This document shows positions 7,165 through 57,780 of a DNA stretch of 64,000 nt, in pieces. The position numbers and the translations under genes are program-made. Each line of letters begins with the position of its first letter. The first letter of the stretch is position 1. Source of the DNA: Minisyncoccia bacterium (lineage in GTDB: Bacteria; Patescibacteriota; Minisyncoccia; Phycocordibacterales; DATDWN01); contig JBAQUS010000010.1 in the NCBI GenBank assembly GCA_049297675.1, forward strand, positions 6,781 to 70,780, given 5' to 3'. The notes under the pieces were generated by a model that did no database searches, was not told the DNA's origin, and was given only the letters and a program-made list of their open reading frames with translations.

Positions 7165-7590
7165 ATGCATAAAAAAATATTTACTCTAGTTTTGGATGTT
7201 TTGGAGGAACACAAAATACTTAGATACATTATCTCTGGCGGTATGAGTGCTACGGTAAACATTTCTCTTTTCTCTCTATTTTTTTATATCTTTGATATTT
7301 ATTACATAATCTCAAACATTATGGCTTTTTCGGTAGCTTTTTTTGTCAGTTTGTTTTTACAAAAATTTTGGACATTTAGAGATCATTCAACAGAAAATAT
7401 GCACATTCAAGGGATGTATTATCTTCTCAACTCTCTTTTAGGTTTGGCAATAAACACCACAGTCCTTTATGTTTGTGTTGATTATTTGAAATTTATACCG
7501 ATTGTAGGAGTAATCATAGCTGGAATATGTACTGCTCTAGTAACATTTCAGATTTCTAGTAGATATGTGTTTAATAATAGCTTTAAATGA
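7165..7590 (+). CDS. GtrA-family small membrane protein (putative polyprenol-phosphate-sugar flippase)
   Basis: A 141-aa protein with four predicted TM segments. The N-terminal LRYIISGGMSATVNISLFSLF matches the GtrA-family pattern. Confidence 0.6.
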   Translation: MHKKIFTLVLDVLEEHKILRYIISGGMSATVNISLFSLFFYIFDIYYIISNIMAFSVAFFVSLFLQKFWTFRDHSTENMHIQGMYYLLNSLLGLAINTTVLYVCVDYLKFIPIVGVIIAGICTALVTFQISSRYVFNNSFK

Positions 7591-8786: not shown

Positions 8787-9449
8787 ATGTCACGAGTACC
8801 TAGAGTAGATATAGGAGATGAGATTTACCATGTTCTCAACAGAAGTAATGGTCGTGTAAAAATATTCAATAATGACAAAGACTACAAAAACTTTGTAGAT
8901 TTACTGATCGAGACAAAAGAGAAGTTTGATATGAGGATTCTTGCTTACTGTATAATGCCGAATCATTGGCATCTAGTTCTGTATCCAAAGAAAGACGGAG
9001 ATCTTTCAAAATTCATGCAATGGTTATCATTAACTCATACACAAAGATATCATGTTAAAACCGAGACTGTTGGATTTGGTCACCTGTACCAAGGAAGGTA
9101 TAAATCATTTTTAGTATCAAGAGACAACTATCTTCTCCAGGTTATTAGATATGTCGAACAAAATCCACTAAGGGCAAAAATTGTTAAAAGAGCTGAGGAT
9201 TGGAAGTGGGGAAGTGGGTTTAATAGATTTAATCCTTCAGAAAAAAACTTTGTTTCTGAATGTCCGATTGATCTACCAAACGATTATAGACAATGGTTAA
9301 ATGAGGTTCACGAAAAAGATGAATTAGAGAACATTAGACTGTCAGTAGAAAAGAGTAAACCATTTGGTACAATTAGTTGGGTAGATAAAATGGTCGAAAC
9401 TTTTAAATTGGGTTTAACCACAAGACTAAGAGGAAGACCCACGAAATAA
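8787..9449 (+). CDS. REP-associated tyrosine transposase (RAYT; IS200/IS605 TnpA-like HUH Y1 transposase)
   Basis: Has the HUH motif MPNHWHLVLYP and the C-terminal catalytic Tyr helix LLQVIRYVEQNPLRAKIV. It is about 220 aa, typical of the Y1_Tnp family. It is flanked by inverted REP copies at 8741-8758 and 9449-9467. Confidence 0.8.
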   Translation: MSRVPRVDIGDEIYHVLNRSNGRVKIFNNDKDYKNFVDLLIETKEKFDMRILAYCIMPNHWHLVLYPKKDGDLSKFMQWLSLTHTQRYHVKTETVGFGHLYQGRYKSFLVSRDNYLLQVIRYVEQNPLRAKIVKRAEDWKWGSGFNRFNPSEKNFVSECPIDLPNDYRQWLNEVHEKDELENIRLSVEKSKPFGTISWVDKMVETFKLGLTTRLRGRPTK

Positions 9450-39281: not shown

Positions 39282-40232
39282 TTATTCTTTATGCCAATTT
39301 GAGAGTGATTCAATCAAGGCTTCCTCAACAGTTCGGATTTTTACTCCTGTTTTAAGGAGTTTAGACACGTCAAGAATACAATTTGATCTTGGAGTTTTTG
39401 CTATTTTAGAGTAGAATTCTTTATCGTTTTTCCAAAAAATAAGTTTTTTCTTTGGTCTCAGTGTTTTTTCAACCATTTCCACTACTTTTTTGGTCGTAAT
39501 AAATCCAGGGTTAGCTATGTTATATATTCCATATGGAGCACCTATTTTCCACAAATCTAAAGAAGCTTTGACAAAATCTCCGAGATGGGAAAGTGTGTTG
39601 GTGTTGTTGTAAACCTTGCTATATCTTTGAATTTTAGAGAGATAGTTACGATTATTATCGAATTCATCAAACGGCACACGAAGTCTTAGTATATATACTT
39701 TTCCTGAATTTTTTAAAAGAATTTCTTCAGCCAGTGCTTTTGTACCACTATAAAAACTACATGGTCCATTTCTAAAAGAAAAATTTGGGGTGTCCTTTTC
39801 GTTAAATCCTCGGATTTTTTCTGGACTGTTTTCAATAATAGATCTTATTTCTGGTTTATTAAGATTTTTTTCAATAACAGTCTTTCCGTTCCTTGATATT
39901 TTTGTCCCGTTGTATATACAGCCAGACGATATGTGCGCCCATGGTATGTTTTCCGTCTGACAAACCTCCGCAATAGTAGTGGGAAGGACTACGTTTCCAA
40001 GAAGCGTATCTGCCCAGTTCAGTTCGCAAGCGTCGATATTTGGTTTTCCCGTATATCCAGCAGCATTAATGACAAAATCAGGTTTTCTTTTTTTGAGTAA
40101 TTTTAGAAGTTTACTGTAGTTTGTGTAGTCTAATGCTTTTCGTGTTGGGGCAAAAAAACGAATCTTTCTTGCCCTGAGTTCTTTTTTGAAAGCTTCTCCA
40201 ACATACCCTGATCCGCCTAATAATATAATCAT
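39282..40232 (-). CDS. RmlD-like NAD(P)-dependent sugar-nucleotide reductase (dTDP-4-dehydrorhamnose reductase family)
   Basis: MIILLGGSGYVGEAFKKEL...FVINAAGYTGKPNIDACE is the RmlD substrate-binding-domain pattern. Confidence 0.65.
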   Translation of the reverse strand: MIILLGGSGYVGEAFKKELRARKIRFFAPTRKALDYTNYSKLLKLLKKRKPDFVINAAGYTGKPNIDACELNWADTLLGNVVLPTTIAEVCQTENIPWAHISSGCIYNGTKISRNGKTVIEKNLNKPEIRSIIENSPEKIRGFNEKDTPNFSFRNGPCSFYSGTKALAEEILLKNSGKVYILRLRVPFDEFDNNRNYLSKIQRYSKVYNNTNTLSHLGDFVKASLDLWKIGAPYGIYNIANPGFITTKKVVEMVEKTLRPKKKLIFWKNDKEFYSKIAKTPRSNCILDVSKLLKTGVKIRTVEEALIESLSNWHKE

Positions 40233-41155
40233 TTTTTATATATTTTAAGGATTGTTTTCACAATAGATGTTGAATCAAGCCCAGCTTTATTCAGTAGAAA
40301 ATTACGACTTCCAACATCTTTTATAAAATGATCAGGTAATCCAAATATTTTGAAAAGTTTAGGTCTCATTGATGATTGCATTAAAAGCTCGGAGACTGCT
40401 CCACCAAATCCTCCTTGCATTCCATTTTCTTCTATCGTAAAAATTGCCTCAGCTTTTTTATTTTTATACAGTATGAGTTTTTTATCAAGCGGTTTTACCG
40501 ATGGCATACTAATAACAGAAATACTCTTTTTTAGTTTTTTCTCCAAAATATTTCCTGCTTCAACAACCACATCCAAAATGTTACCAGTTGATAAAAGTAT
40601 AACATCTTCACCTTTCTTTACCTCATATCCCTTGCCTATTTCAAATTTCCAACCTGGTTTCTCGAAATGTGTGCTGGGACTTTTGCCAAGACGCATATAT
40701 GTTGGTCCTTTGGTCTCAAAAGCTACTCTAGTTGCGCCTTCCGCTTCCCATGCATATGCAGGATTCATGACCTTCATATTTGGTAAGGAGCGCATTATGG
40801 CCAAATCCTCCACGGTATGGTGAGTTATGCCGTGAGTTGCATAGTTATATCCTCCACCAGCCCCAAACAGTTTAACGTCAAGGTTGTGATAGCAAATGTC
40901 TGTCCTAATTTGTTCAAAACAACGTAGAGTTAAAAATGAAGCTATGGAGTAGGCGATAACCGTCTTACCAGTCAAGGCTAGACCACAGGCAACGCCAATC
41001 ATATTTGATTCTGCAACGCCCACATTTATAAATCTATCTGGAAAAGCATCTCTTATTGGTTCAAGAGCATTAAACCCCAAGTCACCAGTTAGAAAGAATA
41101 TATTTTTATTCTTTTTCATTTCAACCAAAGCTTGTTTTACAAAACTATTTCGCAT
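40229..41155 (-). CDS. Transketolase, C-terminal (pyrimidine-binding) subunit
   Basis: FPDRFINVGVAESNMIGVACGLALTGK is the transketolase pyrimidine-binding domain. It overlaps the upstream N-terminal subunit by 11 nt. Confidence 0.85.
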   Translation of the reverse strand: MRNSFVKQALVEMKKNKNIFFLTGDLGFNALEPIRDAFPDRFINVGVAESNMIGVACGLALTGKTVIAYSIASFLTLRCFEQIRTDICYHNLDVKLFGAGGGYNYATHGITHHTVEDLAIMRSLPNMKVMNPAYAWEAEGATRVAFETKGPTYMRLGKSPSTHFEKPGWKFEIGKGYEVKKGEDVILLSTGNILDVVVEAGNILEKKLKKSISVISMPSVKPLDKKLILYKNKKAEAIFTIEENGMQGGFGGAVSELLMQSSMRPKLFKIFGLPDHFIKDVGSRNFLLNKAGLDSTSIVKTILKIYKK

Positions 41156-41981
41156 GTTTTTTCCGGGTCATTTTTTGACTCTCTATGTATGTTTCCTTGT
41201 CAGGAACAAAGTAGTGAGCAAGCAAAGTGTTTTCTATTTTTGGAACTCCCTTACCGCTCACAGTATCTGCTAGTACTATTGCCGGACGATCGGTGTATAT
41301 CGCTTCTGTAATAATTTGCTCTAGTTCTTTTATATCATGACCTGATGATCTAAAGACATCCCATCCAAAAGCCGACCACTTTTTCACTAAATCCATAGTG
41401 TGAACTTTTTTCGTCTCGCCAAATCCTTGGAATTTATTTTCGTCTATTATAGCCACTACATTATTTAGTTTATGAGTTGATGTAAACATAGCCGCTTCCC
41501 ATATTGATCCTTCGTTGCATTCTCCGTCTCCCATGAGTACAAATACTTTTCGATCAGGATGGGTTTCTCTTATAGATAGAGCAACACCAGCTCCAATCGA
41601 TAAACCGTGTCCAAGTGAACCGGTTGAGACCTCAATTCCCTTGGCAGCAAATGAGCAAGGATGAAGATGAAAAATGCCATTATCAACTCTATATTTTTTT
41701 AGATCAGATTTTGGGAAAAAACCGCGTAAAGCTAAGGCCGAGTATAGTGCCGCTCCACCATGACCTTTGCTCAAAATAAACCTATCTCGATTTGGGTGAT
41801 CTGGTTTTTTGGGGTCTATGTGAAGAATACGAAAATAAAGTACTGCTAATATGTCACTAATACAAAGTGCTGAGCCACTTTCTCCAGATTGGCTATTATA
41901 CGACATCTCAATAATCAGTCGTTTCATTTCTGCACTTATCGCTGTAACATCTTTATGTGTATAGAGCTTATTATGAGCCAT
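41145..41981 (-). CDS. Transketolase, N-terminal (thiamine-diphosphate-binding) subunit
   Basis: Carries the TPP-binding region GHGGAALYSALALRGFF, GSLGHGLSIGAGVALS, MGDGECNEGSIWEAAMF. Confidence 0.85.
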   Translation of the reverse strand: MAHNKLYTHKDVTAISAEMKRLIIEMSYNSQSGESGSALCISDILAVLYFRILHIDPKKPDHPNRDRFILSKGHGGAALYSALALRGFFPKSDLKKYRVDNGIFHLHPCSFAAKGIEVSTGSLGHGLSIGAGVALSIRETHPDRKVFVLMGDGECNEGSIWEAAMFTSTHKLNNVVAIIDENKFQGFGETKKVHTMDLVKKWSAFGWDVFRSSGHDIKELEQIITEAIYTDRPAIVLADTVSGKGVPKIENTLLAHYFVPDKETYIESQKMTRKKHAK

Positions 41982-42089
41982 ATGTAGTCACAAAGTATTG
42001 TCTATTTTAGGACTGATGTCAATTCTATTCTTCTGGTCAAAAGAAAAGTTTTGAGATAGTATAGGTCATAATAAATTGCTAAGCCTAAA

Positions 42090-43052
42090 ATGACTAGTCA
42101 CTCCCCAGAATCAATAAAGAATAAGAAAATTTCCGCTATTATCGCCTGTTACAGGGATGGTCAAGCTATTCCTTTTATGCATGAACGTTTAACCAAAACT
42201 TTTAAAGAGATTGGATGTAAATACGAAATTATCTTTGTTAATGATGGAAGTCCAGATAATTCTGAAGCCGTTTTGGATAAAATCGCAGAAGCTGACCACA
42301 ATGTGGTTGCTATCACACATTCGAGGAATTTCAGTTCTCAAAATGCCTTCTTTAGCGGTTTAACAGTCTCAACAGGGGATTCAGCTGTATTTTTAGATGG
42401 TGATTTACAAGATCCTCCAGAGGTTATAAAGGAGTTCGCTCAAAAGTGGATGGAAGGGTTCGATGTGGTTTATGGTGTGAGGGTTAAAAGAGATGCTTCA
42501 CTTTCTCTACGTGTCGGATTTAAGGCTTTCTATTGGATATTCAGTAAACTCTCATACATTAAAATTCCTCGAGATGCAGGGGACTTTGGTCTAATCGATC
42601 GAAAGGTTATTGATGTTATTTTGTCCATGCCAGAGAAAGATCTTTTTATCCGTGGTATGAGAGCCTGGGCAGGCTACAAGCAAGTTGGAGTTCCGTATTT
42701 TAGACCAGAGAGAATGTTTGGAGTTACAACTAATAGTTTTTGGAAAAACGTACGCTGGGCTAAAAAGGGGGTCTTCTCATTCTCCTATGAGCCACTAGAG
42801 TTTATTTTTTATCTATCACTAGTTACATTCTGTATTGCACTAATAGGTATTATCACATACATAAGTTTTTACTTTGTATACCCAGATCAACCGCGAGGAA
42901 TTACCACTATAATAGTACTCATACTTTTTTTCAGTAGTGTACAGCTACTGAGTATAAGTATTATTGGGGAATATCTCGGGCGTATTTTTGAAGAAGTTAA
43001 AGATAGACCACGGTTTGTGGTTAAGAAAATATTAAATAAACCCAAAAAATAG
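42090..43052 (+). CDS. GtrB-like GT2 polyprenol-phosphate sugar synthase with C-terminal TM helices (third paralog)
   Basis: Motifs ISAIIACYRDGQAIP, VNDGSPDNS and LDGDLQDPPE, plus C-terminal TM helices. Confidence 0.75.
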   Translation: MTSHSPESIKNKKISAIIACYRDGQAIPFMHERLTKTFKEIGCKYEIIFVNDGSPDNSEAVLDKIAEADHNVVAITHSRNFSSQNAFFSGLTVSTGDSAVFLDGDLQDPPEVIKEFAQKWMEGFDVVYGVRVKRDASLSLRVGFKAFYWIFSKLSYIKIPRDAGDFGLIDRKVIDVILSMPEKDLFIRGMRAWAGYKQVGVPYFRPERMFGVTTNSFWKNVRWAKKGVFSFSYEPLEFIFYLSLVTFCIALIGIITYISFYFVYPDQPRGITTIIVLILFFSSVQLLSISIIGEYLGRIFEEVKDRPRFVVKKILNKPKK

Positions 43053-43063
43053 AAGATTGCAAA

Positions 43064-43199
43064 ATTCAAAACTCGACGAAAACACACGTTTTCTGGCGTA
43101 TCTCGGAGAGCGTGAAGCTCGAGAGCTAAGGAAAATTTTTAGCATAAAATTATTCCGGCGCCAGAAAATATGTGTTGAGTAAGAGTTTTGTATTTAGCG
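43064..43199. repeat. MITE-like palindromic element, family 2 copy A
   Basis: Reads aaaactcgacgaaaacacacgttttctggcgtatctcggagagcgtgaagctcgagagctaaggaaaattt...attattccggcgccagaaaatatgtgttgagtaagagttttgta. The internal IR is acacgttttctggcg / cgccagaaaatatgtgt. It is near-identical to 57611-57780 apart from a 34-bp insertion in that copy. Confidence 0.65.
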
Positions 43200-43207
43200 A
43201 CTATCGA

Positions 43208-44152
43208 TTATTTTTGATAGTAGGATTTGTGATCTTTCATCCAAGTAATCATTTTCTCTAAACCATTCTCAAAAGACATTTCAGTTTTAAAACCAAGAAG
43301 TTTTTCTGCCTTCGAGCTATCGGCTACCCAAATAGAGGTATCAAAAGGTCTTTTTGGATAGCTATTCCAAAGAAGTTTTGATGTGCTTTTTGTTACCCTC
43401 ATACAGGTGTCCACGGCAGTTTTTATTGTTTCTTGTTTTCCGCTACCTATATTGAAGACTTCTCCTGAAAGATCTGGTCTTTCTCCCGCGAGTATAAATG
43501 CTCTGACAACATCATCTATATAAATAAAGTCTCTTGCCGTATCTGGCGAGGCTAGTGGTGCATCTTTATTCTCTAGGGTATTAAGTATAAGTGTCGGGAC
43601 AAATCTTCCTGGTTCTTCAAAAGCCCCGTATACAGAAAAAAGACGTAGGGTTATTGTAGGCAAGCCTTTCTCTTTGGAGAAGTGAGAGCAAAGTAGAGTT
43701 TGTGCCACTTTCCCCACAGCATAAAAACTGTTTGGCACAACTATTTCGTCTTCACGCATGGGATGATCTTTTGTGCCGTATTCAGAGGAGCTTCCAGTGT
43801 TTACAAACATTTTTACATCGTTTTCCTTTGCTGATTCAAGAAGATAGAGTGTTGCCATAACCGATGACTCTAGTGTCAGTTCAGGATCTTTTTGAGTAGG
43901 GTAGGCACCATAGACAGCTAGATGATATATTACATCTGGTTTTACTTCTGAAATAACTTTTTTAATAAATTCTTTATCTATAATACTACCAGTATGTATT
44001 TTTATTTTTGATTTTATTTCTTCTAGCCTCCATGCATTCTTGGATTCATCTCTGACAATACCATGGACTTCGTGCCCGTTTTCTACTACTCCTCTTGCCA
44101 GGTTTGCACCGACAAATCCAGAGATTCCTGTTATTAGTATTTTTTGTGACAT
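43208..44152 (-). CDS. NAD-dependent sugar-nucleotide epimerase/dehydratase (GMD/Rmd-like extended SDR)
   Basis: Contains KILITGISGFVGANLARGVVENGHEVHGI. The Y-x3-K region reads YAVGKVAQTLL. Confidence 0.75.
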   Translation of the reverse strand: MSQKILITGISGFVGANLARGVVENGHEVHGIVRDESKNAWRLEEIKSKIKIHTGSIIDKEFIKKVISEVKPDVIYHLAVYGAYPTQKDPELTLESSVMATLYLLESAKENDVKMFVNTGSSSEYGTKDHPMREDEIVVPNSFYAVGKVAQTLLCSHFSKEKGLPTITLRLFSVYGAFEEPGRFVPTLILNTLENKDAPLASPDTARDFIYIDDVVRAFILAGERPDLSGEVFNIGSGKQETIKTAVDTCMRVTKSTSKLLWNSYPKRPFDTSIWVADSSKAEKLLGFKTEMSFENGLEKMITWMKDHKSYYQK

Positions 44153-44245
44153 ATTGTTTCCAATAATTTTACCTTAATTATTTCTGAATATAAAGAGTTG
44201 ACAAAGAAATATTAACATGATCCTATTTATGGTAGGAGGATAAAG

Positions 44246-44527
44246 GTGAGTCCAGAAACAATGGGAGTGCTGGCGACGGCTGTCACACTGCTCTACACTC
44301 TTCTCGGTCTGCCGTCGCAGATTTGGAAGAATTACCAGAACAAGTCTATTGAGGGCATTTCGCTCTCGATGACCATTCTGCTCTGCCTGACCTTTACCAC
44401 ATGGGTCGTGTACGGATGGGTGATGAAGGACATCTACATCATCATCTCGAACACGACCGGAGGTATTGGAGGGTACGCGATCCTCTTTCAGTTCTTTCAC
44501 TTTCGAAGCGGGAGGCGACATGTCTGA
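44246..44527 (+). CDS. SemiSWEET / PQ-loop family 3-TM sugar transporter, encoded in a G+C-rich islet
   Basis: 93 aa with three TM helices. GLPSQIWKNYQNKSIEGISL matches the PQ-loop motif (l[PS]Qi.k.y.tks..gis). A strong GGAGGA Shine-Dalgarno lies 6 nt upstream of the GTG start. The local G+C is visibly far above the genome background. Confidence 0.6.
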   Translation: MSPETMGVLATAVTLLYTLLGLPSQIWKNYQNKSIEGISLSMTILLCLTFTTWVVYGWVMKDIYIIISNTTGGIGGYAILFQFFHFRSGRRHV

Positions 44528-45101
44528 GTCAGACGTCTTGCTCACCGAGGACGAGCAGGTAGAGCTCGCTCGTCTCATGGAGAAGCGGGCACTCCACCCT
44601 CGTCAGAGGGTTACGCTAGATCTGTTCTTAGCGGGGATTAAGGTCCACACGTCGAACTCGTCGGAGGTGGCAATCCTTCGCCACGGTTCGAATGGTCTCG
44701 AGATCTACCTCTTGCAGAGACCGGAGAACGACCCGTTCTACGCTGGCGAGTGGCACATGCCCGGGGTGATGCTCTTCTACGATGAACTCATCCACGACGG
44801 CGCAGTCCGCGCCATGAAGGAGGCGCTCAAAGAGGAGGTGGATCCGAGTACGATCCCGCCTCATCACCAGGTCTTCGAGTGGCTCATGGGCAACAAGTCC
44901 GGTCACTGCCCTCGCGGTCACACTGTCTGTTTCCTCCACACGATCATCGTGTCGGAGGAACATGCATGGAAACTCACGAAGGGACAGTTCTTTCCACTCA
45001 AGTCTACACCGACGCCGATGATCGAGGTACACGGAAGGTATCTTACATGGCTTCGGGCCAATCTCCAGTCTGTTCTGAACCGACACAGACAACTGGTCTA
45101 G
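44520..45101 (+). CDS. NUDIX-family hydrolase-like protein, encoded in the G+C-rich islet
   Basis: GEWHMPGVMLFYDELIHDGAVRAMKEALKEEVD partly matches the NUDIX box (G.5E.7REuxEExGu). The ATG at 44520 overlaps the SemiSWEET stop. The ORF track lists a TTG start at 44466. Confidence 0.45.
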   Translation: MSESDVLLTEDEQVELARLMEKRALHPRQRVTLDLFLAGIKVHTSNSSEVAILRHGSNGLEIYLLQRPENDPFYAGEWHMPGVMLFYDELIHDGAVRAMKEALKEEVDPSTIPPHHQVFEWLMGNKSGHCPRGHTVCFLHTIIVSEEHAWKLTKGQFFPLKSTPTPMIEVHGRYLTWLRANLQSVLNRHRQLV

Positions 45102-45125
45102 GTCGAACGACAACAAGTACAAAAG

Positions 45126-45164
45126 ACGGTCCCACGCATACGCGGGGACCGTTCTTCTTTTTAT
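45126..45164 (+). terminator. Rho-independent terminator closing the G+C-rich islet
   Basis: The stem acggtccc / gggaccgt (with an extra cgc/gcg) is followed by tcttctttttat. Confidence 0.55.
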
Positions 45165-45214
45165 AAATTTATAGAGAATGGACAATTTGTTGTTTTTTAG
45201 GATAATGTTATGTA

Positions 45215-46156
45215 ATGAATGAAGGCAATTCTCCCATAGTTCTAAGTATAGTTACTAAATGTGCGATTTGTGGAACTTTTGGTAATTCTAGGGAAATTTA
45301 TAAAGCTAGACTCCATGGAGAAAATTTAGATGAAAAGGCCTTTTCAGCTCGTCGTTTTTACAATGAAAAAATTCATTTTAGAATGGTAAAGTGTCTTACA
45401 TGCGGGCTACTGCGTTCTGATCCGATCATTGACCCAAAAATATATGATGAATTGTATCTTAGAAGTGAGTTTACATATATCGGGCTGGTAGAAAATCTCA
45501 AAAAAACTTACGGATATTATTTGAAAAAGGCTGAAAAATATGTACCATCCAAAAATTCTTTGCTTGAAATTGGATGTGGAAACGGATTCTTTCTTGAAGA
45601 GGCACTGGAGCAAGGGTATAAAAACGTCTCTGGGGTTGAACCAGGACGAGAGGCAATAGAGAAGGCAAGAGGGGATATAAAAAAACATATAAAGATGGAA
45701 ATGTTTACAAAAGATTCTTTACCTCCCAATTCCTTTGATTGTATATGCATTTTTCAGACGCTAGATCACTTACTTGATCCAGTAAAAATGCTGGAGGATG
45801 CTCTGGCTATTCTAAAACCCGGAGGAGTGTTGATTGCTATAAATCATAATCTCAATTCTTTAAGTAGCAAGATTCTTGGAGAAAAATCACCCATAATAGA
45901 TATAGAGCATACATATCTATATAATAAAAATACAATTAGAAAGTTATTTGAAAAAAGCGGATTTGAAGTTATAAAAATTTTCTTCCCTTACAGCAGGCAT
46001 TCTGTTGGTTATTTGTTTTCTCTTTTGCCTATACAACCTGTTGGATTAAAAAAAATGATTCACAGAATCTTAGATTTTCTCCGAGTTTCAGATGTTCCAC
46101 TTTTTGTACCGATAGGTAATCTTGGGATTGTTGCTAAAAAGAAAGTTAATTTTTAA
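45215..46156 (+). CDS. Class I SAM-dependent methyltransferase with N-terminal Zn-ribbon
   Basis: The Zn ribbon is CAICG...CLTCG. Motif I is LLEIGCGNGFFLEEALEQGYKNVSGVEPG. Confidence 0.75.
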   Translation: MNEGNSPIVLSIVTKCAICGTFGNSREIYKARLHGENLDEKAFSARRFYNEKIHFRMVKCLTCGLLRSDPIIDPKIYDELYLRSEFTYIGLVENLKKTYGYYLKKAEKYVPSKNSLLEIGCGNGFFLEEALEQGYKNVSGVEPGREAIEKARGDIKKHIKMEMFTKDSLPPNSFDCICIFQTLDHLLDPVKMLEDALAILKPGGVLIAINHNLNSLSSKILGEKSPIIDIEHTYLYNKNTIRKLFEKSGFEVIKIFFPYSRHSVGYLFSLLPIQPVGLKKMIHRILDFLRVSDVPLFVPIGNLGIVAKKKVNF

Positions 46157-46158
46157 AA

Positions 46159-48459
46159 ATGAGCAAGTTTTTCTTCTATATATTTATACCAGTACTAGTC
46201 ATCATAACCCCAATATTTTTTTTTGGGAAAGTTTTTTTATCAGGAGACACACTACATTATGTTTATCCTGCCGTTGAGTTTTTCCAGAATAACTATCTTT
46301 CTGGACTTAATCCAAATCTTTATTTAGGTTTTCCAGTAGCCTCTTCATTTCATTATGCTTTTTTTAATCCTGTATATTTATTAATTTTTGGCTTGTTTGA
46401 TTTTTTGACTGGCTTCAATTTAGTTTTAGCATTTGATATTTTTCTAGGAGCGCTGTTTTTCTATTTTTTTGCAAGAAATCTCTCATTTGATAAGGAGGAG
46501 TCTACATTGGCGAGCATCACATATATTTTCAGCCAGTTCAGCACATTCTGGTTTGCTTCACTTACTATTTCTAATGGGCTTTTTATTTTACCAGCTATTT
46601 GTTTTGTTGTTTGCAAAATTACGACTGGAAAAAGGTGGTATTTCTTACTTTTGTCGGTCATATTGGGATACGCTTTTTTAAGCTCACACACTCAGTTTAT
46701 TGTTATGGCATTTGTAGGAGGGGCGGTTTTTCTCCTCTATCGCATCTGGGAAATGTATGACAGCAACATATCAATTTTTAAAAATTTTACACCAATATTT
46801 TTATATTTTCTTGGATTAGTCGGTGGGGTGATTTTGGGTGCACCGCAAATTTTAAATATTCTTAGGTTTTTCAAATACATTACTCGTTCAGACTTTATTA
46901 CGTTCGATTATATTAAGATTCTGGATCCCTTAAAGTACTTATTGCCTAGCTTTAATGTATACAAGCTTACTAGTCAGGAGTTTCTGCCTTACGTAGGACT
47001 GATCCCTTTGTTTTTGATTCTATATGCCGTAATATACAAAGTTCGTACTGACAAGAAAATATTTTTCTATTCAGCGTCGTTCGTTCTTTTTTTCAGTCTA
47101 ATGATCAAATATTCACCAACTGCTTATGTCTTAAAACATCTACCGGTTTTTCAGTATTTTTCTCAACCAGTTAGGTGGCTATATGTCGGTAATTTGTTTC
47201 TAGCACTTCTTTCCGGGGTAGGTTTGAGATTATTGAGAGAAAACAAAGAATCTGAATTTTTCAAAACTGCTTTAAAGTATTATAAGAAGACATTAATTCT
47301 AGTAGTTTTTCTATTTATCTTGTTGAACGCTTTAGGGTACTTCTTTGGGACCTATTTTGTCAGTAAAGTTCAGAATTATTTTGATCTGCACTTGTATGCC
47401 AAAACCTCACAGCTTTCAACAGACTATTATCATAATATTATTAAAGTTCTTGTTGACGGTATTATATATAATTTTAGCTTTACTAACCCTAATGTGCTTC
47501 TGTTTTTCTCAGTAGTTGTTTCGTTTTATATATTACTTAAGTATTTTCGAAATAGTCGATTTTTTGTAAATAACATCTTAATTCTGGTAATTTTTAATCT
47601 ATTAGGGTCGTTTTTTATAAATACTAAATTTACTGATAAAAATCAAGTATTAAATAAACCAGACTTTGTGAAATTTATACAAGATAAAGAAAAAGACACA
47701 AATTCTTTTAGAGTTTTCAGTTATGCTATTCCTGATGCTCAATATAAAAAAATTGCGGCCATATATCCAAATGAATCACTTGAGATTGAGAAGTTTGCTA
47801 TCGAGGGTATTATTGGAAACACAAACGACTTAGCATTAGTTGGGGGACTGGAGCCAAATGGAGATAAAAAAGTCCAACAAATTATATATTTTTATTTAAA
47901 TCAAAAGGAGGATAATTTTGATAAAAAAATTCCTATACTTTCAGCCATTAACACAAAATATATTGTTACTCCCTATATATTAAATTCCAAAGGTCTATCT
48001 TTAGCCACAAGTACTTCGGTAACCAAATTTAATGTTCCACTTTACTTGTATGAAAATAAGAATGCTTTACCAAGAGTCTATTTATCAAAAAAAGTTACTT
48101 ATCTTAATGAGGGTGAAGATAAAAAAAACCTAAGTCTTGTTTTAGACGATAAAAATGATTTTTCTAAAATTACTTTTATTGAATGTGACACTTGCAGTGA
48201 CTATGTCTTAAGTCAGGTTAGTACAGACTCAGCCTCTGTTTTAGAATATAATAATGAGTATATTAGAATTAGTGTTAAAAGCAGATTAGGTGGCTGGGTT
48301 GTTATTGGAAATGCAAATGTGCTTGGCTGGACAGCCAGTGTTGATGGCGTTGATACTAAGATATATCCTGCGAACTACATATTACAAGGAGTTTATCTAA
48401 GCGGAGGAGAACGTCTTTTGGAGTTATCTCATAAAACTATTTGGTATCCATCCATATGA
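46159..48459 (+). CDS. YfhO-like GT-C family membrane glycosyltransferase
   Basis: 766 aa and polytopic. The N-terminal region FFGKVFLSGDTLHYVYPAVEFFQNNYLSGLNPNLYLGFPVASSF matches the YfhO pattern (f.g.d...Q..P......l..G..P.W...G.P). Confidence 0.55.
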   Translation: MSKFFFYIFIPVLVIITPIFFFGKVFLSGDTLHYVYPAVEFFQNNYLSGLNPNLYLGFPVASSFHYAFFNPVYLLIFGLFDFLTGFNLVLAFDIFLGALFFYFFARNLSFDKEESTLASITYIFSQFSTFWFASLTISNGLFILPAICFVVCKITTGKRWYFLLLSVILGYAFLSSHTQFIVMAFVGGAVFLLYRIWEMYDSNISIFKNFTPIFLYFLGLVGGVILGAPQILNILRFFKYITRSDFITFDYIKILDPLKYLLPSFNVYKLTSQEFLPYVGLIPLFLILYAVIYKVRTDKKIFFYSASFVLFFSLMIKYSPTAYVLKHLPVFQYFSQPVRWLYVGNLFLALLSGVGLRLLRENKESEFFKTALKYYKKTLILVVFLFILLNALGYFFGTYFVSKVQNYFDLHLYAKTSQLSTDYYHNIIKVLVDGIIYNFSFTNPNVLLFFSVVVSFYILLKYFRNSRFFVNNILILVIFNLLGSFFINTKFTDKNQVLNKPDFVKFIQDKEKDTNSFRVFSYAIPDAQYKKIAAIYPNESLEIEKFAIEGIIGNTNDLALVGGLEPNGDKKVQQIIYFYLNQKEDNFDKKIPILSAINTKYIVTPYILNSKGLSLATSTSVTKFNVPLYLYENKNALPRVYLSKKVTYLNEGEDKKNLSLVLDDKNDFSKITFIECDTCSDYVLSQVSTDSASVLEYNNEYIRISVKSRLGGWVVIGNANVLGWTASVDGVDTKIYPANYILQGVYLSGGERLLELSHKTIWYPSI

Positions 48460-52749: not shown

Positions 52750-54213
52750 ATGAAAAAAATAACCAGCTTATTAACATCATTATTTTTATCAATCTTACTT
52801 CTTTTCCCAATAAATAGTGCAAATGCATTTATCTCTGATTGTAGCGGGGGTAGCGTAACTCATGCTGGAGGAAAAACTATACATACTTTTAATTCAAGCG
52901 ATATATTAGATTGTACTGGAACAAGTGGTGGGGCAGTTGATTATCTAATTGTTGGAGGGGGTGGGGGAGGATCTTATCAAGATAGTGGTGCCGGCGGAGG
53001 TGCCGGCGGAGTATTGGTGGGTAATGATTACGTATTAAATGCACAATCTTATTCAGTTGTTGTGGGTGGTGGGGGTGCTATATTTTCAAAAGGAAACGAC
53101 TCTGTCTTTGATGGAATGACTGCTTACGGAGGGGGTACTCCAGTTACAGGTGGTACTGGCGACGCTATTGGTGGTTCTGGAGCTGGTGGGGGTGGCGGTG
53201 ATATTCCTGGTGCAGGAATATCTGGTCAGGGACATTCAGGTGGTTATGGACACACTGGTAGTGGCGGTGCGTGTTCTGGTGATCCCTATTCTACTGGTGG
53301 AGGTGGTGGGGCAAGTTCGATTGGGGTTGCAGGGACATCTTCTGGTTCAGGTAATGGTGGCGATGGTATAATGAGTTCAATATCTGGATCAAATTCATAT
53401 TATGGCGGAGGAGGTGGCGGAGGAGCTGAAATTTTTAGGCAATGTAGCGGGGGAAATGGGACAGGTGGTTTGGGTGGTGGCGGTAATGGTGGAACTGCTC
53501 CAAATGGTGACACAGGTTCGACTGCAGGAAGCGTAAATACAGGTGGAGGTGGTGGGAATTTTCGTTCAGGAGGTTCAGGTGTAGTAATAATAAGTTATCC
53601 TTCACTTCCAACAATAATAGGCTTGGGTGTAACAAATAGATTAGCAAAGTTCTCAACGACTAATACTATAGCTAGTTCTCTCTTCTCTGATGATGGATTA
53701 AACATCACTCTAACTTCTGGAAATTTATTTATCTCAGGAGGATCATTATTTACACAATTTATTAATATACTAGCAGATGGTCTAGGTTTAGATACAAGTA
53801 CAGCAGGACTTCTTTCCATCGGCTCTACTACTGCGACTTCAATTAATATAGGCAGATCAGGTGTAACCACAACGATACTTGGGAAGACAAAATTATCAAA
53901 TATTGGCACAATCTCAAATTGTAACTCCGTAGCTTCTCCAGCGGTATGTGGATCTGCACCGTCAGGTAGTGTTACAATGTCTAAAGGTGGCAGTACTTTA
54001 ATAGTGAATACAACATCTGTAACTCCTGATAGCCAGATATTTATCATTGAAGACTCATCACTTGGTGTAAGATTGGGAATTACCTGTAACACCGCTACAA
54101 ATCGTACTTATACAATAAGTGCAAGAGTACCTAGTACAAGCTTTACAATAAAATCAAGTAACAATGTGAATGGTGCAAACAATGCATGTCTAAGTTACTT
54201 TATTGTGAATTAA
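52750..54213 (+). CDS. Secreted glycine-rich domain protein (Gly_rich-like) with conserved C-terminal Ser/Thr-rich domain; paralog B
   Basis: A signal peptide (MKKITSLLTSLFLSILLLFPINSANA) is followed by VDYLIVGGGGGGS, GGxGG tracts and GSGVVIISY. The C-terminal domain is shared with the paralog at 24231..25712 and ends CLSYFIVN. Confidence 0.75.
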   Translation: MKKITSLLTSLFLSILLLFPINSANAFISDCSGGSVTHAGGKTIHTFNSSDILDCTGTSGGAVDYLIVGGGGGGSYQDSGAGGGAGGVLVGNDYVLNAQSYSVVVGGGGAIFSKGNDSVFDGMTAYGGGTPVTGGTGDAIGGSGAGGGGGDIPGAGISGQGHSGGYGHTGSGGACSGDPYSTGGGGGASSIGVAGTSSGSGNGGDGIMSSISGSNSYYGGGGGGGAEIFRQCSGGNGTGGLGGGGNGGTAPNGDTGSTAGSVNTGGGGGNFRSGGSGVVIISYPSLPTIIGLGVTNRLAKFSTTNTIASSLFSDDGLNITLTSGNLFISGGSLFTQFINILADGLGLDTSTAGLLSIGSTTATSINIGRSGVTTTILGKTKLSNIGTISNCNSVASPAVCGSAPSGSVTMSKGGSTLIVNTTSVTPDSQIFIIEDSSLGVRLGITCNTATNRTYTISARVPSTSFTIKSSNNVNGANNACLSYFIVN

Positions 54214-57610: not shown

Positions 57611-57780
57611 ATTATAAAACTCGACGAAAATACATGTTTTCTGGCGTATCTCGGAGAGCGTGAAGCTCAAGAGTTAAGGAAAATTTTCAGCCCGCCCGTA
57701 CCCGAACGGTACGTTCGGGCGGGCAGAAAATTATTCCGGCGCCAGAAAATATGTGTTGAGTAAGAGTTTTGTAGTTCGCG
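57611..57780. repeat. MITE-like palindromic element, family 2 copy B, carrying a 34-bp G+C-rich perfect-palindrome insertion
   Basis: The copy is co-linear with 43064-43199. An extra gcccgcccgtacccgaacggtacgttcgggcgggc lies at about 57690-57724. Its nested perfect stems are gcccgcccg/cgggcgggc and cccgaacg/cgttcggg with loop gta. The G+C content there is strikingly above the local level. Confidence 0.65.

What the first reader, a model, noticed from the sequence alone, without database searches (positions are those of the whole stretch)
44198..45175. Compositionally foreign G+C-rich islet (about 0.95 kb) encoding a SemiSWEET/PQ-loop transporter and a NUDIX-like hydrolase
Between about 44240 and 45170 the sequence is roughly half G+C by eye, against about one-third on both flanks. 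It encodes a 93-aa 3-TM PQ-loop protein (SemiSWEET-like) with a strong GGAGGA Shine-Dalgarno. Next comes an overlapping roughly 190-aa protein with a partial NUDIX box. The islet ends in its own G+C-rich rho-independent terminator. Several long antisense ORFs in this stretch are the usual artefact of high G+C. The sharp compositional boundary argues for recent horizontal acquisition from a high-G+C donor, for example a host if this organism is an episymbiont. A sugar uniporter plus a nucleotide-sugar-type hydrolase fits the locus theme.
Basis: seen in the sequence. Interest (0 to 1): 0.7.

Follow-up and report, generated by a model that had tools for sequence, protein, structure and literature searches.

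The report
Foreign GC-rich sugar-gene cassette in CPR
A 0.93-kb GC-rich stretch in an AT-rich ultra-small (CPR) bacterium is a real, imported two-gene cassette encoding a small sugar channel and a GDP-sugar-hydrolase-like protein at the head of a cell-surface sugar operon; it is mostly ordinary horizontal gene transfer, with no sign that it came from a host.

Summary
Positions 44240-45170 are 54% GC against 34% for the window, and GC3 is 0.68-0.72 against 0.25-0.30 in the neighbouring genes. The same junctions occur in four independent assemblies. ORF1 (93 aa) is a bona fide SemiSWEET by Pfam, sequence matches to solved structures and a predicted fold. ORF2 (193 aa) is a NUDIX-fold protein. 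Its family carries the modified box of GDP-mannose mannosyl hydrolase and usually leads sugar-nucleotide/glycan operons, mostly in CPR genomes.

Import is supported: codon usage and amino-acid composition are both foreign, the two genes share one third-position signature, and a relative (L014) has an empty site. No donor was found; the nearest relatives are 45-62% identical. All named NUDIX-like relatives are CPR, so a host origin is unsupported.

One twist: a second AT-rich relative (L005) carries a 47%-identical, equally GC-rich copy at the same operon position. Synonymous sites between the two genomes are saturated, and family copies misfit their hosts in both directions. I read this as repeated import into a conserved slot, not ancient residence.

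The finding is a new member of a known kind, of moderate interest.

The parts
44153..44245 (.). AT-rich divergent intergenic region (host-like composition). It carries a -35-like TTGACA (44199-44204) and the Shine-Dalgarno AGGAGGA (44234-44240) for ORF1. Promoter-like sites for the divergent epimerase gene lie on the minus strand.
   Evidence: Sequence. GC is 0.20-0.40 up to 44240. The consensus scan finds minus-strand promoter-like sites at 44204-44177 and others, but no good plus-strand -10.
44246..44527 (+). SemiSWEET / PQ-loop gene: 93 aa, GTG start, three TM helices. GC 0.51, GC3 0.68.
   Evidence: Pfam PF03083 1.3e-11 (44.8 bits against a cut-off of 23.7) and PF04193 7e-9. phmmer to solved SemiSWEETs 4rng 2.1e-7, 4x5m and 4qnc. 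AF2 pLDDT 94.3 with helices 3-32, 40-59 and 63-89. Foldseek top hits are all SemiSWEETs, with TM 0.70-0.85 and rmsd about 2 A. Composition.
44520..45101 (+). NUDIX-fold, GDP-mannose-mannosyl-hydrolase-like gene: 193 aa, ATG start after GGGAGG, overlapping the ORF1 stop by 8 nt (ATGTCTGA). GC 0.57, GC3 0.72.
   Evidence: Pfam NUDIX 4.8e-4 (20.6 bits against a cut-off of 21.1). 26 of 36 family members hit NUDIX. The family profile against the PDB gives 2fml 5.7e-9, NrtR 1.9e-6 and GDPMH 2.8e-5. AF2 pLDDT 94.9. Foldseek returns NrtR/AraR NUDIX domains and GDPMH 2gt2 at TMt 0.70.
45123..45162 (+). GC-rich hairpin plus U-tract: an intrinsic terminator that closes the islet and marks its right compositional boundary.
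   Evidence: RNA fold of 45095-45175: MFE -25 kcal/mol, z = -3.57, 0 of 200 shuffles as stable. GC drops from 0.57 to 0.17 within 40 nt.
43208..44152 (-). Context: divergent NAD-dependent NDP-sugar 4,6-dehydratase/epimerase with host-like composition (GC3 0.27). It is the conserved neighbour of the NUDIX-like family.
   Evidence: Pfam Epimerase 1e-53 and GDP_Man_Dehyd 2e-52. NCBIfam dehydratase-type hits, all below their cut-offs. The same arrangement occurs in the P0005 contig, L008-L010, L016 and L018.
45215..48459 (+). Context: downstream operon genes with host-like composition. These are a SAM methyltransferase (45215-46156) and a YfhO-like large membrane protein (46159-48459). Both are syntenic with L005.
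   Evidence: Pfam Methyltransf_23 4e-23. Orthologues in L005 are 68% and 39% identical. The L005 orthologue of the 766-aa protein passes the Pfam YfhO threshold.
40229..43052 (.). Context: split transketolase C and N genes (40229-41981, minus strand) and a GtrB/ArnC-type polyprenyl-phosphate glycosyltransferase (42090-43052, plus strand). This is the sugar-modification module that recurs next to both islet gene families elsewhere.
   Evidence: Pfam. The GT2 against PDB 5ekp GtrB gives 2.6e-62, and ArnC 1e-38. TK-N/TK-C lie next to NUDIX-like genes in L008-L010, L019 and the P0005 contig, and next to the best SemiSWEET relative in L020/L021.

Best explanation
**What it is.** The islet is a compact, translationally coupled two-gene cassette with its own terminator. 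It encodes a SemiSWEET and a GDP-sugar-hydrolase-like NUDIX protein. It occupies the leader position of a surface-glycan modification operon in an AT-rich Minisyncoccia (CPR/Patescibacteria) genome. That position is the first gene after the intergenic region shared with a divergent NDP-sugar dehydratase gene.

**Origin.** The cassette was imported as one unit, recently enough not to have ameliorated, from a bacterium of roughly 50-60% GC that has the same kind of glycan locus. Another CPR lineage is the most likely type of donor. The donor itself is unsampled.

**The family.** The NUDIX-like gene belongs to a largely CPR-borne family that is a conserved accessory of such loci. This family appears to be exchanged repeatedly, so copies are often out of compositional equilibrium with their hosts.

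**Inferred function.** The NUDIX-like protein binds an NDP-sugar, probably a GDP-sugar, made by the neighbouring dehydratase/epimerase enzymes. Like E. coli Gmm/WcaH, it probably splits it into NDP and free sugar, trimming the precursor pool of the operon it leads. The co-translated SemiSWEET dimer lets a free sugar cross the membrane. This could be export of the released sugar or uptake of a precursor.

**Shown:** composition, folds, motifs, gene order, distribution.
**Inferred:** donor type, substrates, direction of transport, and functional coupling of the two proteins.
For: **Foreign composition at every level.**
- GC is 0.54 against 0.34. GC3 is 0.68-0.72 against 0.25-0.31, and the NUDIX-like ORF is the only substantial GC3 outlier among 51 ORFs.
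- Codon usage is anticorrelated with the window's own (r = -0.38 and -0.51).
- The NUDIX-like protein's GARP/FYMINK ratio of 1.10 exceeds all 34 background proteins (mean 0.53, max 0.92). The family itself spans 0.34-2.0, so the fold does not require GC-type residues.

**One unit.** The two genes overlap by 8 nt and have near-identical third-position usage: A 0.12/0.11, C 0.32/0.35, G 0.37/0.37, T 0.19/0.17.

**Real junctions.** Four assemblies carry the same junctions.

**Patchy distribution.**
- L014 has a methyltransferase 70% identical to the window's, but no NUDIX-like gene, no SemiSWEET and no GC peak.
- L005 has the NUDIX-like gene only.
- No other family locus has a SemiSWEET.

**Not ancient residence.**
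- Fourfold sites are saturated between the window and L005 in the methyltransferase (0.329 observed, 0.338 expected).
- Yet fourfold GC is 0.63/0.60 in the NUDIX-like genes and 0.21/0.19 in the methyltransferases.
- Across 11 family copies, gene GC (mean 0.50) does not track host GC (r = -0.21; GC3 rho = -0.65). Misfits run in both directions.

**Donor type.**
- Named NUDIX-like relatives are Saccharibacteria, Uhrbacteria and Taylorbacteria.
- SemiSWEET relatives include Niyogibacteria and Yanofskybacteria.
- In groundwater MAGs, 83% of detected transfers into Patescibacteria came from other Patescibacteria (PMC12455944).

**Function.**
- The NUDIX fold and the GDPMH-type box E-x7-R-L-x3-E-l-g are present. 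The alignment to GDPMH starts at its N-terminal helix. E49, R67 and R97 align with GDPMH positions 22, 37 and 65.
- GDP-sugar glycosyl hydrolases are known to have lost Nudix-box residues (PMC5389931). WcaH sits in the colanic-acid operon and is thought to limit GDP-mannose flux (PMC10037897).
- The conserved context is a dehydratase/epimerase, GT11, split transketolase, methyltransferases and GT2.
- The SemiSWEET is supported by fold and Pfam, and W53 and N69 align with a Trp and an Asn of 4rng.
Against: - No donor was identified. The best relatives among 1.84 billion representatives are 48% (full length), 62% (a fragment) and 45% identical, so 'recent' rests on composition alone.
- L005 carries an equally GC-rich homologue at the same operon position. 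Its divergence (47%) lies within the range of the flanking orthologues (39-68%), as vertical descent would predict. The independent-import reading needs two events in the same slot.
- Fourfold-site identity in the NUDIX-like pair is slightly above the saturation expectation (0.37 against 0.26, p = 0.07).
- There are no mobility genes, target-site duplications or tRNA at the borders, so the insertion mechanism is unknown.
- The SemiSWEET's amino-acid composition is not clearly foreign (ratio 0.57).
- The window's NUDIX-like protein has Ala at the family's nearly invariant Glu, the position that aligns with GDPMH residue 70 (its metal ligand, by my recollection). A Glu sits one residue earlier, so catalysis is uncertain.
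- The best structural matches also include non-catalytic NrtR/AraR sensor domains.
Confidence: 0.55

Rival explanations
1. Ancient resident gene. The NUDIX-like gene was already at this position in the common ancestor of the window and L005 lineages. Its high GC is actively maintained, for example by selection on the mRNA or DNA of the operon-leader gene or on rare-codon usage. L014 lost the gene.
For: - L005 is syntenic (NUDIX-like, then methyltransferase, then YfhO-like) and shows the same anomaly: gene 0.557 against 0.32 for the rest, GC3 0.62 against 0.22.
- The 47% identity lies between the flanking orthologues at 68% and 39%.
- Family copies tend to be GC-richer than their hosts in 9 of 11 loci.
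- The window mRNA folds somewhat better than shuffles (z = -2.8).
Against: - Family members in other hosts are AT-type in both DNA and protein: L017 is 0.35 in a 0.42 host, and GARP/FYMINK goes down to 0.34. So no intrinsic GC requirement exists.
- Both the window and L005 proteins have GC-type amino-acid composition beyond any host protein.
- The L005 mRNA shows no excess structure (z = -0.5).
- Antisense ORFs are not conserved in frame.
- This reading does not explain why the unrelated SemiSWEET shares the same third-position signature.
Confidence: 0.15
2. Host-derived islet. The cassette was taken from the GC-rich host of this presumed episymbiont, so its composition fingerprints the host.
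For: - Composition implies a donor of about 55-60% GC.
- The best SemiSWEET relative is non-CPR. It is an Oligoflexia MAG of 53% GC, where the gene is compositionally native (0.55, GC3 0.70) and sits in a split-transketolase sugar operon.
Against: - That relative is only 45% identical.
- All named NUDIX-like relatives are CPR.
- The closest NUDIX-like sequences come from contigs of 32-45% GC.
- No near-identical protein exists in the 15-billion-protein collection.
- Published transfers into Patescibacteria are mostly intra-phylum.
- By my reading of the bin-name convention, names suggest CPR lineages themselves reach about 58% GC, so a CPR donor is compositionally possible.
Confidence: 0.12
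3. Assembly chimera or contamination: the GC-rich segment belongs to another organism and was joined in silico.
For: Sharp compositional edges, and the sequence comes from a MAG.
Against: - Identical junctions occur in three independently assembled runs and the NCBI MAG.
- The edges coincide with a start codon and a terminator, with a host-type Shine-Dalgarno and promoter region upstream.
- An analogous architecture occurs in an unrelated MAG, L005.
- No repeat at the junctions could mislead an assembler.
Confidence: 0.02

Closest known systems
[quoted passage not shown]
   Same: - NUDIX fold (Foldseek TMt 0.70; profile E = 2.8e-5).
- The alignment starts at the N-terminal helix.
- The family consensus box E-x7-R-L-x3-E-l-g equals GDPMH's ETLEAAFERLTMAELG.
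- E49, R67 and R97 align with GDPMH positions 22 (Asp), 37 (Arg) and 65 (Arg).
- It lies inside a sugar-nucleotide/glycan cluster next to GDP-mannose-dehydratase-type genes and, in L016 and L018, a GT11 fucosyltransferase-family gene.
   Different: - Sequence identity is only about 18-21%.
- It has an extra helix of about 25-40 residues at the N-terminus, and a C-terminal helix with a conserved His that is not alignable to GDPMH His124.
- The window protein has Ala at the position aligning with GDPMH residue 70, with a Glu one residue earlier.
- The position aligning with Arg52 is not conserved.
- Activity is untested.
NrtR/AraR-type NUDIX sensor domains (PDB 2fml, 3gz5/3gz8, 5bs6)
   Same: - These are the best sequence-profile and Foldseek matches (5.7e-9; 1e-7).
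- They have a degenerate catalytic box.
- They bind a sugar or nucleotide-sugar ligand.
- The leader-of-operon position would suit a regulator.
   Different: There is no C-terminal winged-helix DNA-binding domain. The protein is a single NUDIX domain with short helical extensions.
Bacterial SemiSWEETs (PDB 4rng, 4x5m, 4qnc, 4qnd)
   Same: - Length of 93 aa and a three-helix bundle.
- Pfam MtN3_slv and PQ-loop hits.
- Conserved Gln in TM1, Trp in TM2 and Asn in TM3.
- TM 0.70-0.85 and rmsd about 2 A.
   Different: - The TM1 motif is L-P-x-Q rather than P-Q, a feature shared with its CPR and Oligoflexia relatives.
- It scores below the NCBIfam SemiSWEET_1/2/3 subfamily cut-offs.
- It is translationally coupled to a NUDIX gene, a pairing not seen in any other locus examined.
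Atypical-GC, mosaic surface-polysaccharide loci (for example O-antigen/rfb clusters acquired by lateral transfer; from general knowledge)
   Same: A glycan-biosynthesis locus with gene-scale compositional mosaicism and presence/absence variation among relatives.
   Different: - The misfit is GC-rich in an AT-rich genome and confined to one leader cassette.
- Its borders fall exactly at a start codon and a terminator.
- The same slot is filled by another misfit allele in a second genome (L005).

Membership tests
SemiSWEET / PQ-loop (Pfam PF03083, PF04193) | Profile match above the curated threshold | tested here: met
   MtN3_slv scores 44.8 bits against a cut-off of 23.7. PQ-loop scores 35.8 against 22.
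SemiSWEET / PQ-loop (Pfam PF03083, PF04193) | About 90-100 aa forming a single triple-helix bundle | tested here: met
   The AF2 model (pLDDT 94.3) has helices 3-32, 40-59 and 63-89. Foldseek top hits are 4rng, 4x5m and 4qnc, with TM 0.70-0.85.
SemiSWEET / PQ-loop (Pfam PF03083, PF04193) | PQ motif in TM1 | tested here: inconclusive
   Gln25 is invariant in 30 relatives. The Pro is displaced by one residue: L-P-S-Q against I-P-Q in 4rng. The variant is shared by P0007 and P0010-P0012.
SemiSWEET / PQ-loop (Pfam PF03083, PF04193) | Pocket Trp (TM2) and Asn (TM3). Their role in sugar binding is from my knowledge of the published SemiSWEET structures. | tested here: met
   W53 is invariant in the subfamily alignment. 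W53 and N69 align with a Trp and an Asn of 4rng.
SemiSWEET / PQ-loop (Pfam PF03083, PF04193) | NCBIfam curated SemiSWEET_1/2/3 subfamily cut-offs | tested here: not met
   The best is SemiSWEET_2, at 43.1 bits against a cut-off of 80. The protein is in the broad family but in none of those curated subfamilies.
SemiSWEET / PQ-loop (Pfam PF03083, PF04193) | Homodimeric sugar uniport activity | not testable with these tools
   Needs a transport assay.
NUDIX superfamily (PF00293) | NUDIX alpha/beta/alpha fold | tested here: met
   AF2 pLDDT is 94.9. There are 287 PDB matches at E <= 1e-3, and those listed are all NUDIX domains.
NUDIX superfamily (PF00293) | Pfam gathering threshold | tested here: inconclusive
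   The window protein scores 20.6 bits against a cut-off of 21.1. 26 of 36 family members match, the best at 7.6e-11. The family profile against PDB NUDIX gives 5.7e-9.
NUDIX superfamily (PF00293) | Canonical box G-x5-E-x7-R-E-U-x-E-E-x-G-U | tested here: not met
   The family has G-x6-E-x7-R-L-x3-E. The window protein reads G82...E89...R97-A-M-K-E101-A102 (sequence).
GDP-sugar glycosyl hydrolase (GDPMH/Gmm/WcaH) | Modified box R-L-x3-E-L-G with a single retained Glu. Its identification as the metal ligand Glu70 is from my memory of the GDPMH literature. | tested here: inconclusive
   The family consensus matches. The Glu is at least 90% conserved and aligns with GDPMH residue 70. The window protein has Ala102 at that column and Glu101 next to it. 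Loss of Nudix-box residues in this class is documented (PMC5389931).
GDP-sugar glycosyl hydrolase (GDPMH/Gmm/WcaH) | Substrate and leaving-group residues Asp22, Arg37, Arg52 and Arg65 (their roles are from my memory of the GDPMH literature) | tested here: inconclusive
   E49, R67 (invariant) and R97 align with GDPMH positions 22, 37 and 65. The position aligning with Arg52 is not conserved.
GDP-sugar glycosyl hydrolase (GDPMH/Gmm/WcaH) | Catalytic base His124 and Tyr103 (from my memory of the GDPMH literature) | tested here: inconclusive
   The profile alignment ends at GDPMH residue 96. The family has a conserved His171 in a C-terminal helix, but equivalence was not established.
GDP-sugar glycosyl hydrolase (GDPMH/Gmm/WcaH) | Location in a GDP-sugar/glycan gene cluster | tested here: met
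   The gene is adjacent to GDP_Man_Dehyd-type dehydratases/epimerases in the window, the P0005 contig, L008-L010, L016 and L018. A GT11 gene lies downstream in L016 and L018. WcaH's operon context is described in PMC10037897.
GDP-sugar glycosyl hydrolase (GDPMH/Gmm/WcaH) | Hydrolysis of a GDP-sugar to GDP plus sugar | not testable with these tools
   Needs an enzyme assay.
NrtR-type NUDIX transcription regulators | C-terminal winged-helix DNA-binding domain | tested here: not met
   The 193-aa model is one NUDIX domain plus N-terminal helices 10-25 and 33-42 and C-terminal helices 169-192. Matches to 2fml, 3gz5 and 5bs6 cover only their NUDIX domains.
Horizontally acquired genomic islet | Compositional deviation from the host genome (GC, codon usage) | tested here: met
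Horizontally acquired genomic islet | Patchy presence among related genomes | tested here: met
   L014 has an empty site. L005 has the NUDIX-like gene only. The SemiSWEET is unique to the window.
Horizontally acquired genomic islet | Mobility signatures (integrase/transposase, flanking repeats, tRNA target) | tested here: not met
   No flanking direct or inverted repeats beyond chance. No tRNA in the window. No phage, plasmid, viral or defence matches.
Horizontally acquired genomic islet | Identifiable donor lineage with a close homologue | tested here: not met
   The word-index search returns only self-hits. The best exhaustive hits are 48%, 62% (a fragment) and 45%.
Three-component extracytoplasmic glycosylation system (GtrB/CsbB + GtrA/GtcA + GT-C/YfhO) | Polyprenyl-phosphate GT2, a small flippase and a GT-C transferase encoded together | tested here: inconclusive
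   The GtrB/ArnC homologue at 42090-43052 scores 2.6e-62. The 766-aa protein is called YfhO-like only through its L005 orthologue. A GtrA-family gene exists, but 37 kb away at 7165-7590. The system is described in PMC7389260 and PMC8035078.

The most novel reading that the evidence does not exclude
The small PQ-loop protein may not be a free-sugar uniporter. It could instead be the membrane-translocation or hand-over component for the polyprenyl-phosphate-sugar made by the adjacent GtrB-like GT2 and consumed by the YfhO-like GT-C enzyme. That would make it a bacterial counterpart of the eukaryotic PQ-loop protein MPDU1, which by my recollection is needed for use of dolichol-P-sugars. It would have been acquired as a module with a GDP-sugar-trimming NUDIX protein.

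In support: it sits between the two enzymes. Its best relative also lies inside a sugar-modification operon. MPDU1 and the SWEETs belong to one family (PMC3281891).

Against: a canonical GtrA gene exists elsewhere in the window. The Trp and Asn that align with those of solved SemiSWEETs are retained. L005 manages without the protein.
Probability: 0.07. Interest if true: 0.7.

Novelty: new member of a known kind. Interest (0 to 1): 0.38.

Why it matters
The finding documents, with an empty-site control, a clean single-cassette gene import into the surface-glycan locus of an ultra-small CPR bacterium. Cell-surface sugars in these organisms presumably mediate attachment to hosts.

It also defines an uncharacterised, largely CPR-borne family of GDPMH-like NUDIX proteins. 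These habitually lead sugar-nucleotide operons and are unusually often out of compositional equilibrium with their genomes, which suggests high turnover of this one module.

If the hydrolase and SemiSWEET work together, they would form a simple relief valve for nucleotide-sugar pools in organisms with minimal metabolism.

None of this overturns current understanding. The main practical lesson is that a GC-rich islet in a CPR genome is not by itself evidence of host-derived DNA.

Tried and rejected
- **Word-indexed homology searches** with each protein returned only the query itself. The profile version returned 6 proteins.
- **The search for related loci** with 36- and 8-sequence alignments failed for lack of a conserved stretch. 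The 3-sequence version found only one species-representative genome, a Saccharibacteria MAG. The source MAG and L005's MAG were not returned by this scan.
- **Vector or mobile-element origin:** no plasmid DNA match, no phage tblastn match, no IMG/VR loci for either protein, no PADLOC hit, and only marginal PHROG hits of unknown function. There are no flanking repeats and no tRNA. I considered an integron-cassette reading because the cassette is promoterless with a 3' hairpin. I dropped it because the hairpin looks like an ordinary terminator without an attC core. That was by inspection only.
- **RNA-gene explanation for high GC:** there are no Rfam or tRNA hits in the window. mRNA folding z-scores are inconsistent, -2.8 in the window and -0.5 in L005.
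- **Antisense-gene explanation:** the long antisense ORFs fall in different frames in different family members.
- **Other foreign islets:** I checked whether the other GC peaks in the window were foreign. They are glycine-codon driven.
- **Holin reading of the 3-TM protein:** rejected. Pfam Phage_holin_2 scores 0.032, far below threshold and far weaker than the SemiSWEET matches.
- **Donor identification:** most relatives are anonymous metagenome proteins, so cluster look-ups gave few names.


Full report
**1. The observation**

The compositional islet is real.
- In 200-bp windows, GC rises from 0.34-0.36 to 0.47-0.60 between 44200 and 45100 and falls back to 0.32-0.36.
- Positions 44240-45170 are 54.1% GC against 34.5% for the window. 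This is the most GC-rich 900-bp stretch of the 64 kb: 0.552, against a mean of 0.344 and sd of 0.038.
- The edges are sharp. GC rises at the GTG start codon (44246) and collapses from 0.57 to 0.17 just after a hairpin at about 45155.
- The excess is largest at third codon positions. GC3 is 0.68 and 0.72 in the two genes and 0.25-0.31 in the neighbours.
- Among 51 non-overlapping ORFs in the window (mean GC3 0.28, sd 0.06), the NUDIX-like ORF is the only substantial outlier.
- The two lesser GC peaks (24.3-25.1 kb and 52.8-53.6 kb) are the GGN-rich halves of two paralogous glycine-rich proteins. They have strong G skew and low GC3, so they are a different phenomenon.
- The window has no rRNA, tRNA or Rfam match.

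The junctions are not an assembly artefact. The islet and its flanks are 100% identical in three independently assembled sequencing runs and 99.98% identical in the NCBI MAG GCA_049298995.1, which is annotated 'Minisyncoccia bacterium'. Minisyncoccia belongs to phylum Minisyncoccota, which to my knowledge corresponds to the CPR/Patescibacteria radiation.

**2. Anatomy**

- ORF1 is 44246-44527 (+), 93 aa. Its GTG start lies 5 nt after AGGAGGA.
- ORF2 is best read from the ATG at 44520 to 45101, 193 aa. It is preceded by GGGAGG inside ORF1 and overlaps ORF1's stop by 8 nt (ATGTCTGA), so the two are translationally coupled.
- A hairpin at 45123-45156 (about -25 kcal/mol, z = -3.6) followed by UUCUUCUUUUU closes the unit.
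- The 93-nt region upstream is AT-rich and shared with a divergent NDP-sugar dehydratase/epimerase gene. It contains TTGACA, but the consensus scan finds no good plus-strand -10.
- No direct or inverted repeats bracket the islet beyond chance.

**3. ORF1 is a SemiSWEET**

- Pfam MtN3_slv scores 1.3e-11 and PQ-loop 7e-9, both well above their gathering scores.
- The sequence alone hits the solved SemiSWEETs 4rng (2.1e-7), 4x5m and 4qnc.
- An AF2 model built on 30 relatives (pLDDT 94.3) has three long helices. Its best PDB matches are all SemiSWEETs, with TM 0.70-0.85 and rmsd about 2 A.
- Gln25 and Trp53 are invariant in the subfamily, and Asn69 aligns with the TM3 Asn of 4rng.
- The TM1 motif is L-P-x-Q rather than P-Q, as in its nearest relatives.
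- It scores below NCBIfam's curated SemiSWEET subfamily cut-offs.

**4. ORF2 is a NUDIX-fold protein of a GDPMH-like family**

- The single sequence is just under Pfam's threshold (20.6 against 21.1 bits).
- The exhaustive HMMER search recovered a family. I aligned 36 members. 26 of them hit Pfam NUDIX, and the family profile matches solved NUDIX proteins (2fml at 5.7e-9).
- The AF2 model (pLDDT 94.9) is a NUDIX fold. [quoted passage not shown]
- The canonical box is absent. The family consensus is G-x6-E-x7-R-L-x3-E-l-g, the same modification as GDPMH's ETLEAAFERLTMAELG.
- The profile alignment to GDPMH begins at its N-terminal helix. It aligns the conserved E49, R67 and R97 with GDPMH positions 22, 37 and 65. 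The catalytic roles of those positions are from my memory of the GDPMH literature.
- The literature confirms that GDP-sugar glycosyl hydrolases have lost key Nudix-box residues (PMC5389931). It also confirms that WcaH lies in the colanic-acid operon and is thought to limit GDP-mannose flux (PMC10037897).
- The window protein has Ala102 at the family's nearly invariant Glu, with Glu101 beside it, so its own catalytic competence is uncertain.
- It has no winged-helix domain, so it is not an NrtR-type regulator.

**5. Both genes belong to this kind of locus**

The NUDIX-like gene repeatedly sits as the first gene after a gap of about 115 nt from a divergent GDP-mannose-dehydratase-like gene. This is seen in the P0005 contig, L016 (Taylorbacteria) and L018; in L008-L010 the gap is about 216 nt.
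- What follows it is GT11 in L016 and L018, split transketolase genes in L019, and a methyltransferase in the window and L005.
- In L008-L010 the genes immediately downstream lie on the opposite strand.
- In L017 (Uhrbacteria) it is divergent from an FdtA-like gene.

The window has the same set of genes: transaldolase, split transketolase, two dehydratase/epimerases, GT1, GT2 and methyltransferases. It also has a GT2 that is a close homologue of GtrB/ArnC polyprenyl-phosphate glycosyltransferases (5ekp, 2.6e-62). The 766-aa membrane protein has an L005 orthologue that passes Pfam YfhO.

The best SemiSWEET relative (45% identical, from an Oligoflexia MAG) lies 18 nt downstream of split transketolase genes in a sugar-modification operon.

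Named relatives of the NUDIX-like protein are all CPR: Saccharibacteria, Uhrbacteria and Taylorbacteria. Named SemiSWEET relatives include Niyogibacteria and Yanofskybacteria.

**6. Origin of the GC-rich composition**

*Evidence for import*
- Codon usage is anticorrelated with the host's.
- The NUDIX-like protein has a GARP/FYMINK ratio of 1.10. That is higher than all 34 background proteins of the window (mean 0.53, max 0.92). The family spans 0.34-2.0, so the fold tolerates AT-type composition.
- The two islet genes have almost identical third-position usage, which indicates a shared compositional history and co-transfer.
- A relative whose methyltransferase is 70% identical (L014, on a 243-kb contig) has the transketolase gene directly upstream of the methyltransferase, with no NUDIX-like gene, SemiSWEET or GC peak.

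*The complication*
- The closest full-length relative (P0003, 47-48% identical) lies in another AT-rich MAG contig, L005 (32% GC outside the gene). It sits at the same position, directly upstream of the orthologous methyltransferase (68% identical) and YfhO-like gene (39%).
- It is just as anomalous: GC 0.557, GC3 0.62 against 0.22.
- L005 has no SemiSWEET.

*Why I still favour import*
- Fourfold-degenerate sites are saturated between the two genomes in the methyltransferase (0.329 observed, 0.338 expected) and nearly so in the NUDIX-like pair (0.372 against 0.26, p = 0.07).
- Yet those sites are 60-63% GC in the NUDIX-like genes and 19-21% GC in the methyltransferases. A single ancestral acquisition that simply has not ameliorated is therefore excluded. 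Either composition is actively maintained, or each lineage imported its own copy.
- Across 11 family copies, gene GC (mean 0.50, sd 0.06) does not track host GC (r = -0.21; GC3 against neighbours rho = -0.65). Copies are GC-poorer than their hosts in L017 and L011 and GC-richer in the window, L005, L019, L006 and L016.
- Both AT-hosted copies are GC-type at the amino-acid level.
- mRNA structure excess is not shared: z = -2.8 against -0.5.
- Antisense ORFs are not conserved in frame.
- The closest relative of all (L007; 65% identical in the N-terminal half, 45% in the C-terminal half) is a frameshifted copy in a non-glycan context in a contig of about 43% GC.

Together these favour a frequently exchanged leader-gene module over a maintained-GC resident. 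The case is not closed.

**7. Donor**

The donor is unknown.
- Nothing closer than 45-62% identity exists among 1.84 billion cluster representatives.
- There are no plasmid, phage or viral-contig matches.
- The CPR-only list of named NUDIX-like relatives makes another CPR bacterium the likeliest type of donor. So does the published finding that 83% of detected transfers into Patescibacteria are intra-phylum (PMC12455944).
- By my reading of the bin-name convention, names suggest that Uhrbacteria alone span about 36-58% GC.
- The SemiSWEET's best relative being a compositionally native gene in a 53% GC Oligoflexia genome keeps a non-CPR source possible.
- A host origin is neither supported nor excluded.

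**8. Mechanism (inferred)**

By analogy with Gmm/WcaH, the NUDIX-like protein would bind the NDP-sugar produced by the adjacent dehydratase/epimerase enzymes and probably cleave it, tuning precursor supply to the operon it leads. The co-translated SemiSWEET dimer would let a free sugar cross the membrane. This could be the sugar released by hydrolysis (a relief valve) or an imported precursor.

A more speculative alternative is that the PQ-loop protein handles the polyprenyl-phosphate-sugar between the GtrB-like and YfhO-like enzymes. The three-component system is described in PMC7389260 and PMC8035078, and MPDU1's membership of the PQ-loop family in PMC3281891. A canonical GtrA-family gene elsewhere in the window (7165-7590) makes this less necessary.

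**9. Verdict**

- Horizontal import is supported, but the 'host donor' idea is not.
- The finding is best described as a recently imported SemiSWEET and GDPMH-like cassette occupying a conserved, apparently high-turnover leader slot of a CPR glycan locus.
- The genes and the phenomenon are of known kinds. The gene pairing and the recurrent compositional misfit of this family are modestly new.
- Interest is moderate to low.

Noticed in passing
window 43068-43183 and 57616-57763: A strongly structured intergenic repeat of about 115 nt occurs in two copies. A 33-nt core is identical in both, with 0 chance matches expected. A long terminal stem pairs ACACACGUUUUCUGGCG with CGCCAGAAAAUAUGUGU (MFE -43.6 kcal/mol, z = -6.05). 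The second copy carries a 33-nt GC-rich palindromic insert. There is no Rfam match. It could be a MITE-like element, a bidirectional terminator or an ncRNA.
   Followed up: partly
window 24231-25712 and 52750-54213: Two paralogous secreted glycine-rich proteins of 493 and 487 aa (Pfam Gly_rich_2 was recorded for the second) have similar N-terminal signal-like regions and highly similar C-terminal parts. Their GGN-rich cores cause the window's other two GC peaks, with G skew of +0.4 to +0.56 and GC3 of only 0.20.
   Followed up: partly
window 8787-9449: An IS200-like Y1 transposase gene (Pfam Y1_Tnp, 5e-18) is the only mobility gene seen in the window. It lies 35 kb from the islet.
   Followed up: no
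window 7165-7590: A GtrA/DPMS-family small membrane protein (PF04138, 1.8e-20) is a candidate lipid-linked-sugar flippase. It is encoded far from the GtrB-like GT2 (42090-43052) and the YfhO-like gene (46159-48459).
   Followed up: partly
L016 6001-6540 and 10902-11405 (Ca. Taylorbacteria MAG GCA_001820875.1): Two NUDIX genes lie in one glycan locus. One is a confirmed family member (P0064). The second has only a weak Pfam NUDIX hit and did not match the window protein by tblastn. Both are GC-richer than their surroundings: 0.52 and 0.54 against 0.45.
   Followed up: partly
L007 332-888 (JGI 3300069939, 1.8-kb contig): The closest relative of the window's NUDIX-like protein (65% identical in the N-terminal half) is split by a frameshift into 121- and 64-aa ORFs. 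It sits in a non-glycan context, next to a CrtC-like lipocalin and a UMPH-1 nucleotidase. It could be a decaying copy or a sequencing error.
   Followed up: partly
window 44520-45101, residues 97-102: The window protein is one of the few family members (10% or fewer) lacking the nearly invariant box Glu. It has Ala102, with Glu101 adjacent. It may be catalytically altered relative to the rest of its family.
   Followed up: partly
window 62892-63170: A 92-aa ORF has odd codon-position composition (GC1 0.18, GC3 0.58), inside a slightly GC-richer end of the window (62-64 kb, GC 0.39-0.42). It is probably a wrong-frame or antisense artefact of a gene running off the window.
   Followed up: no
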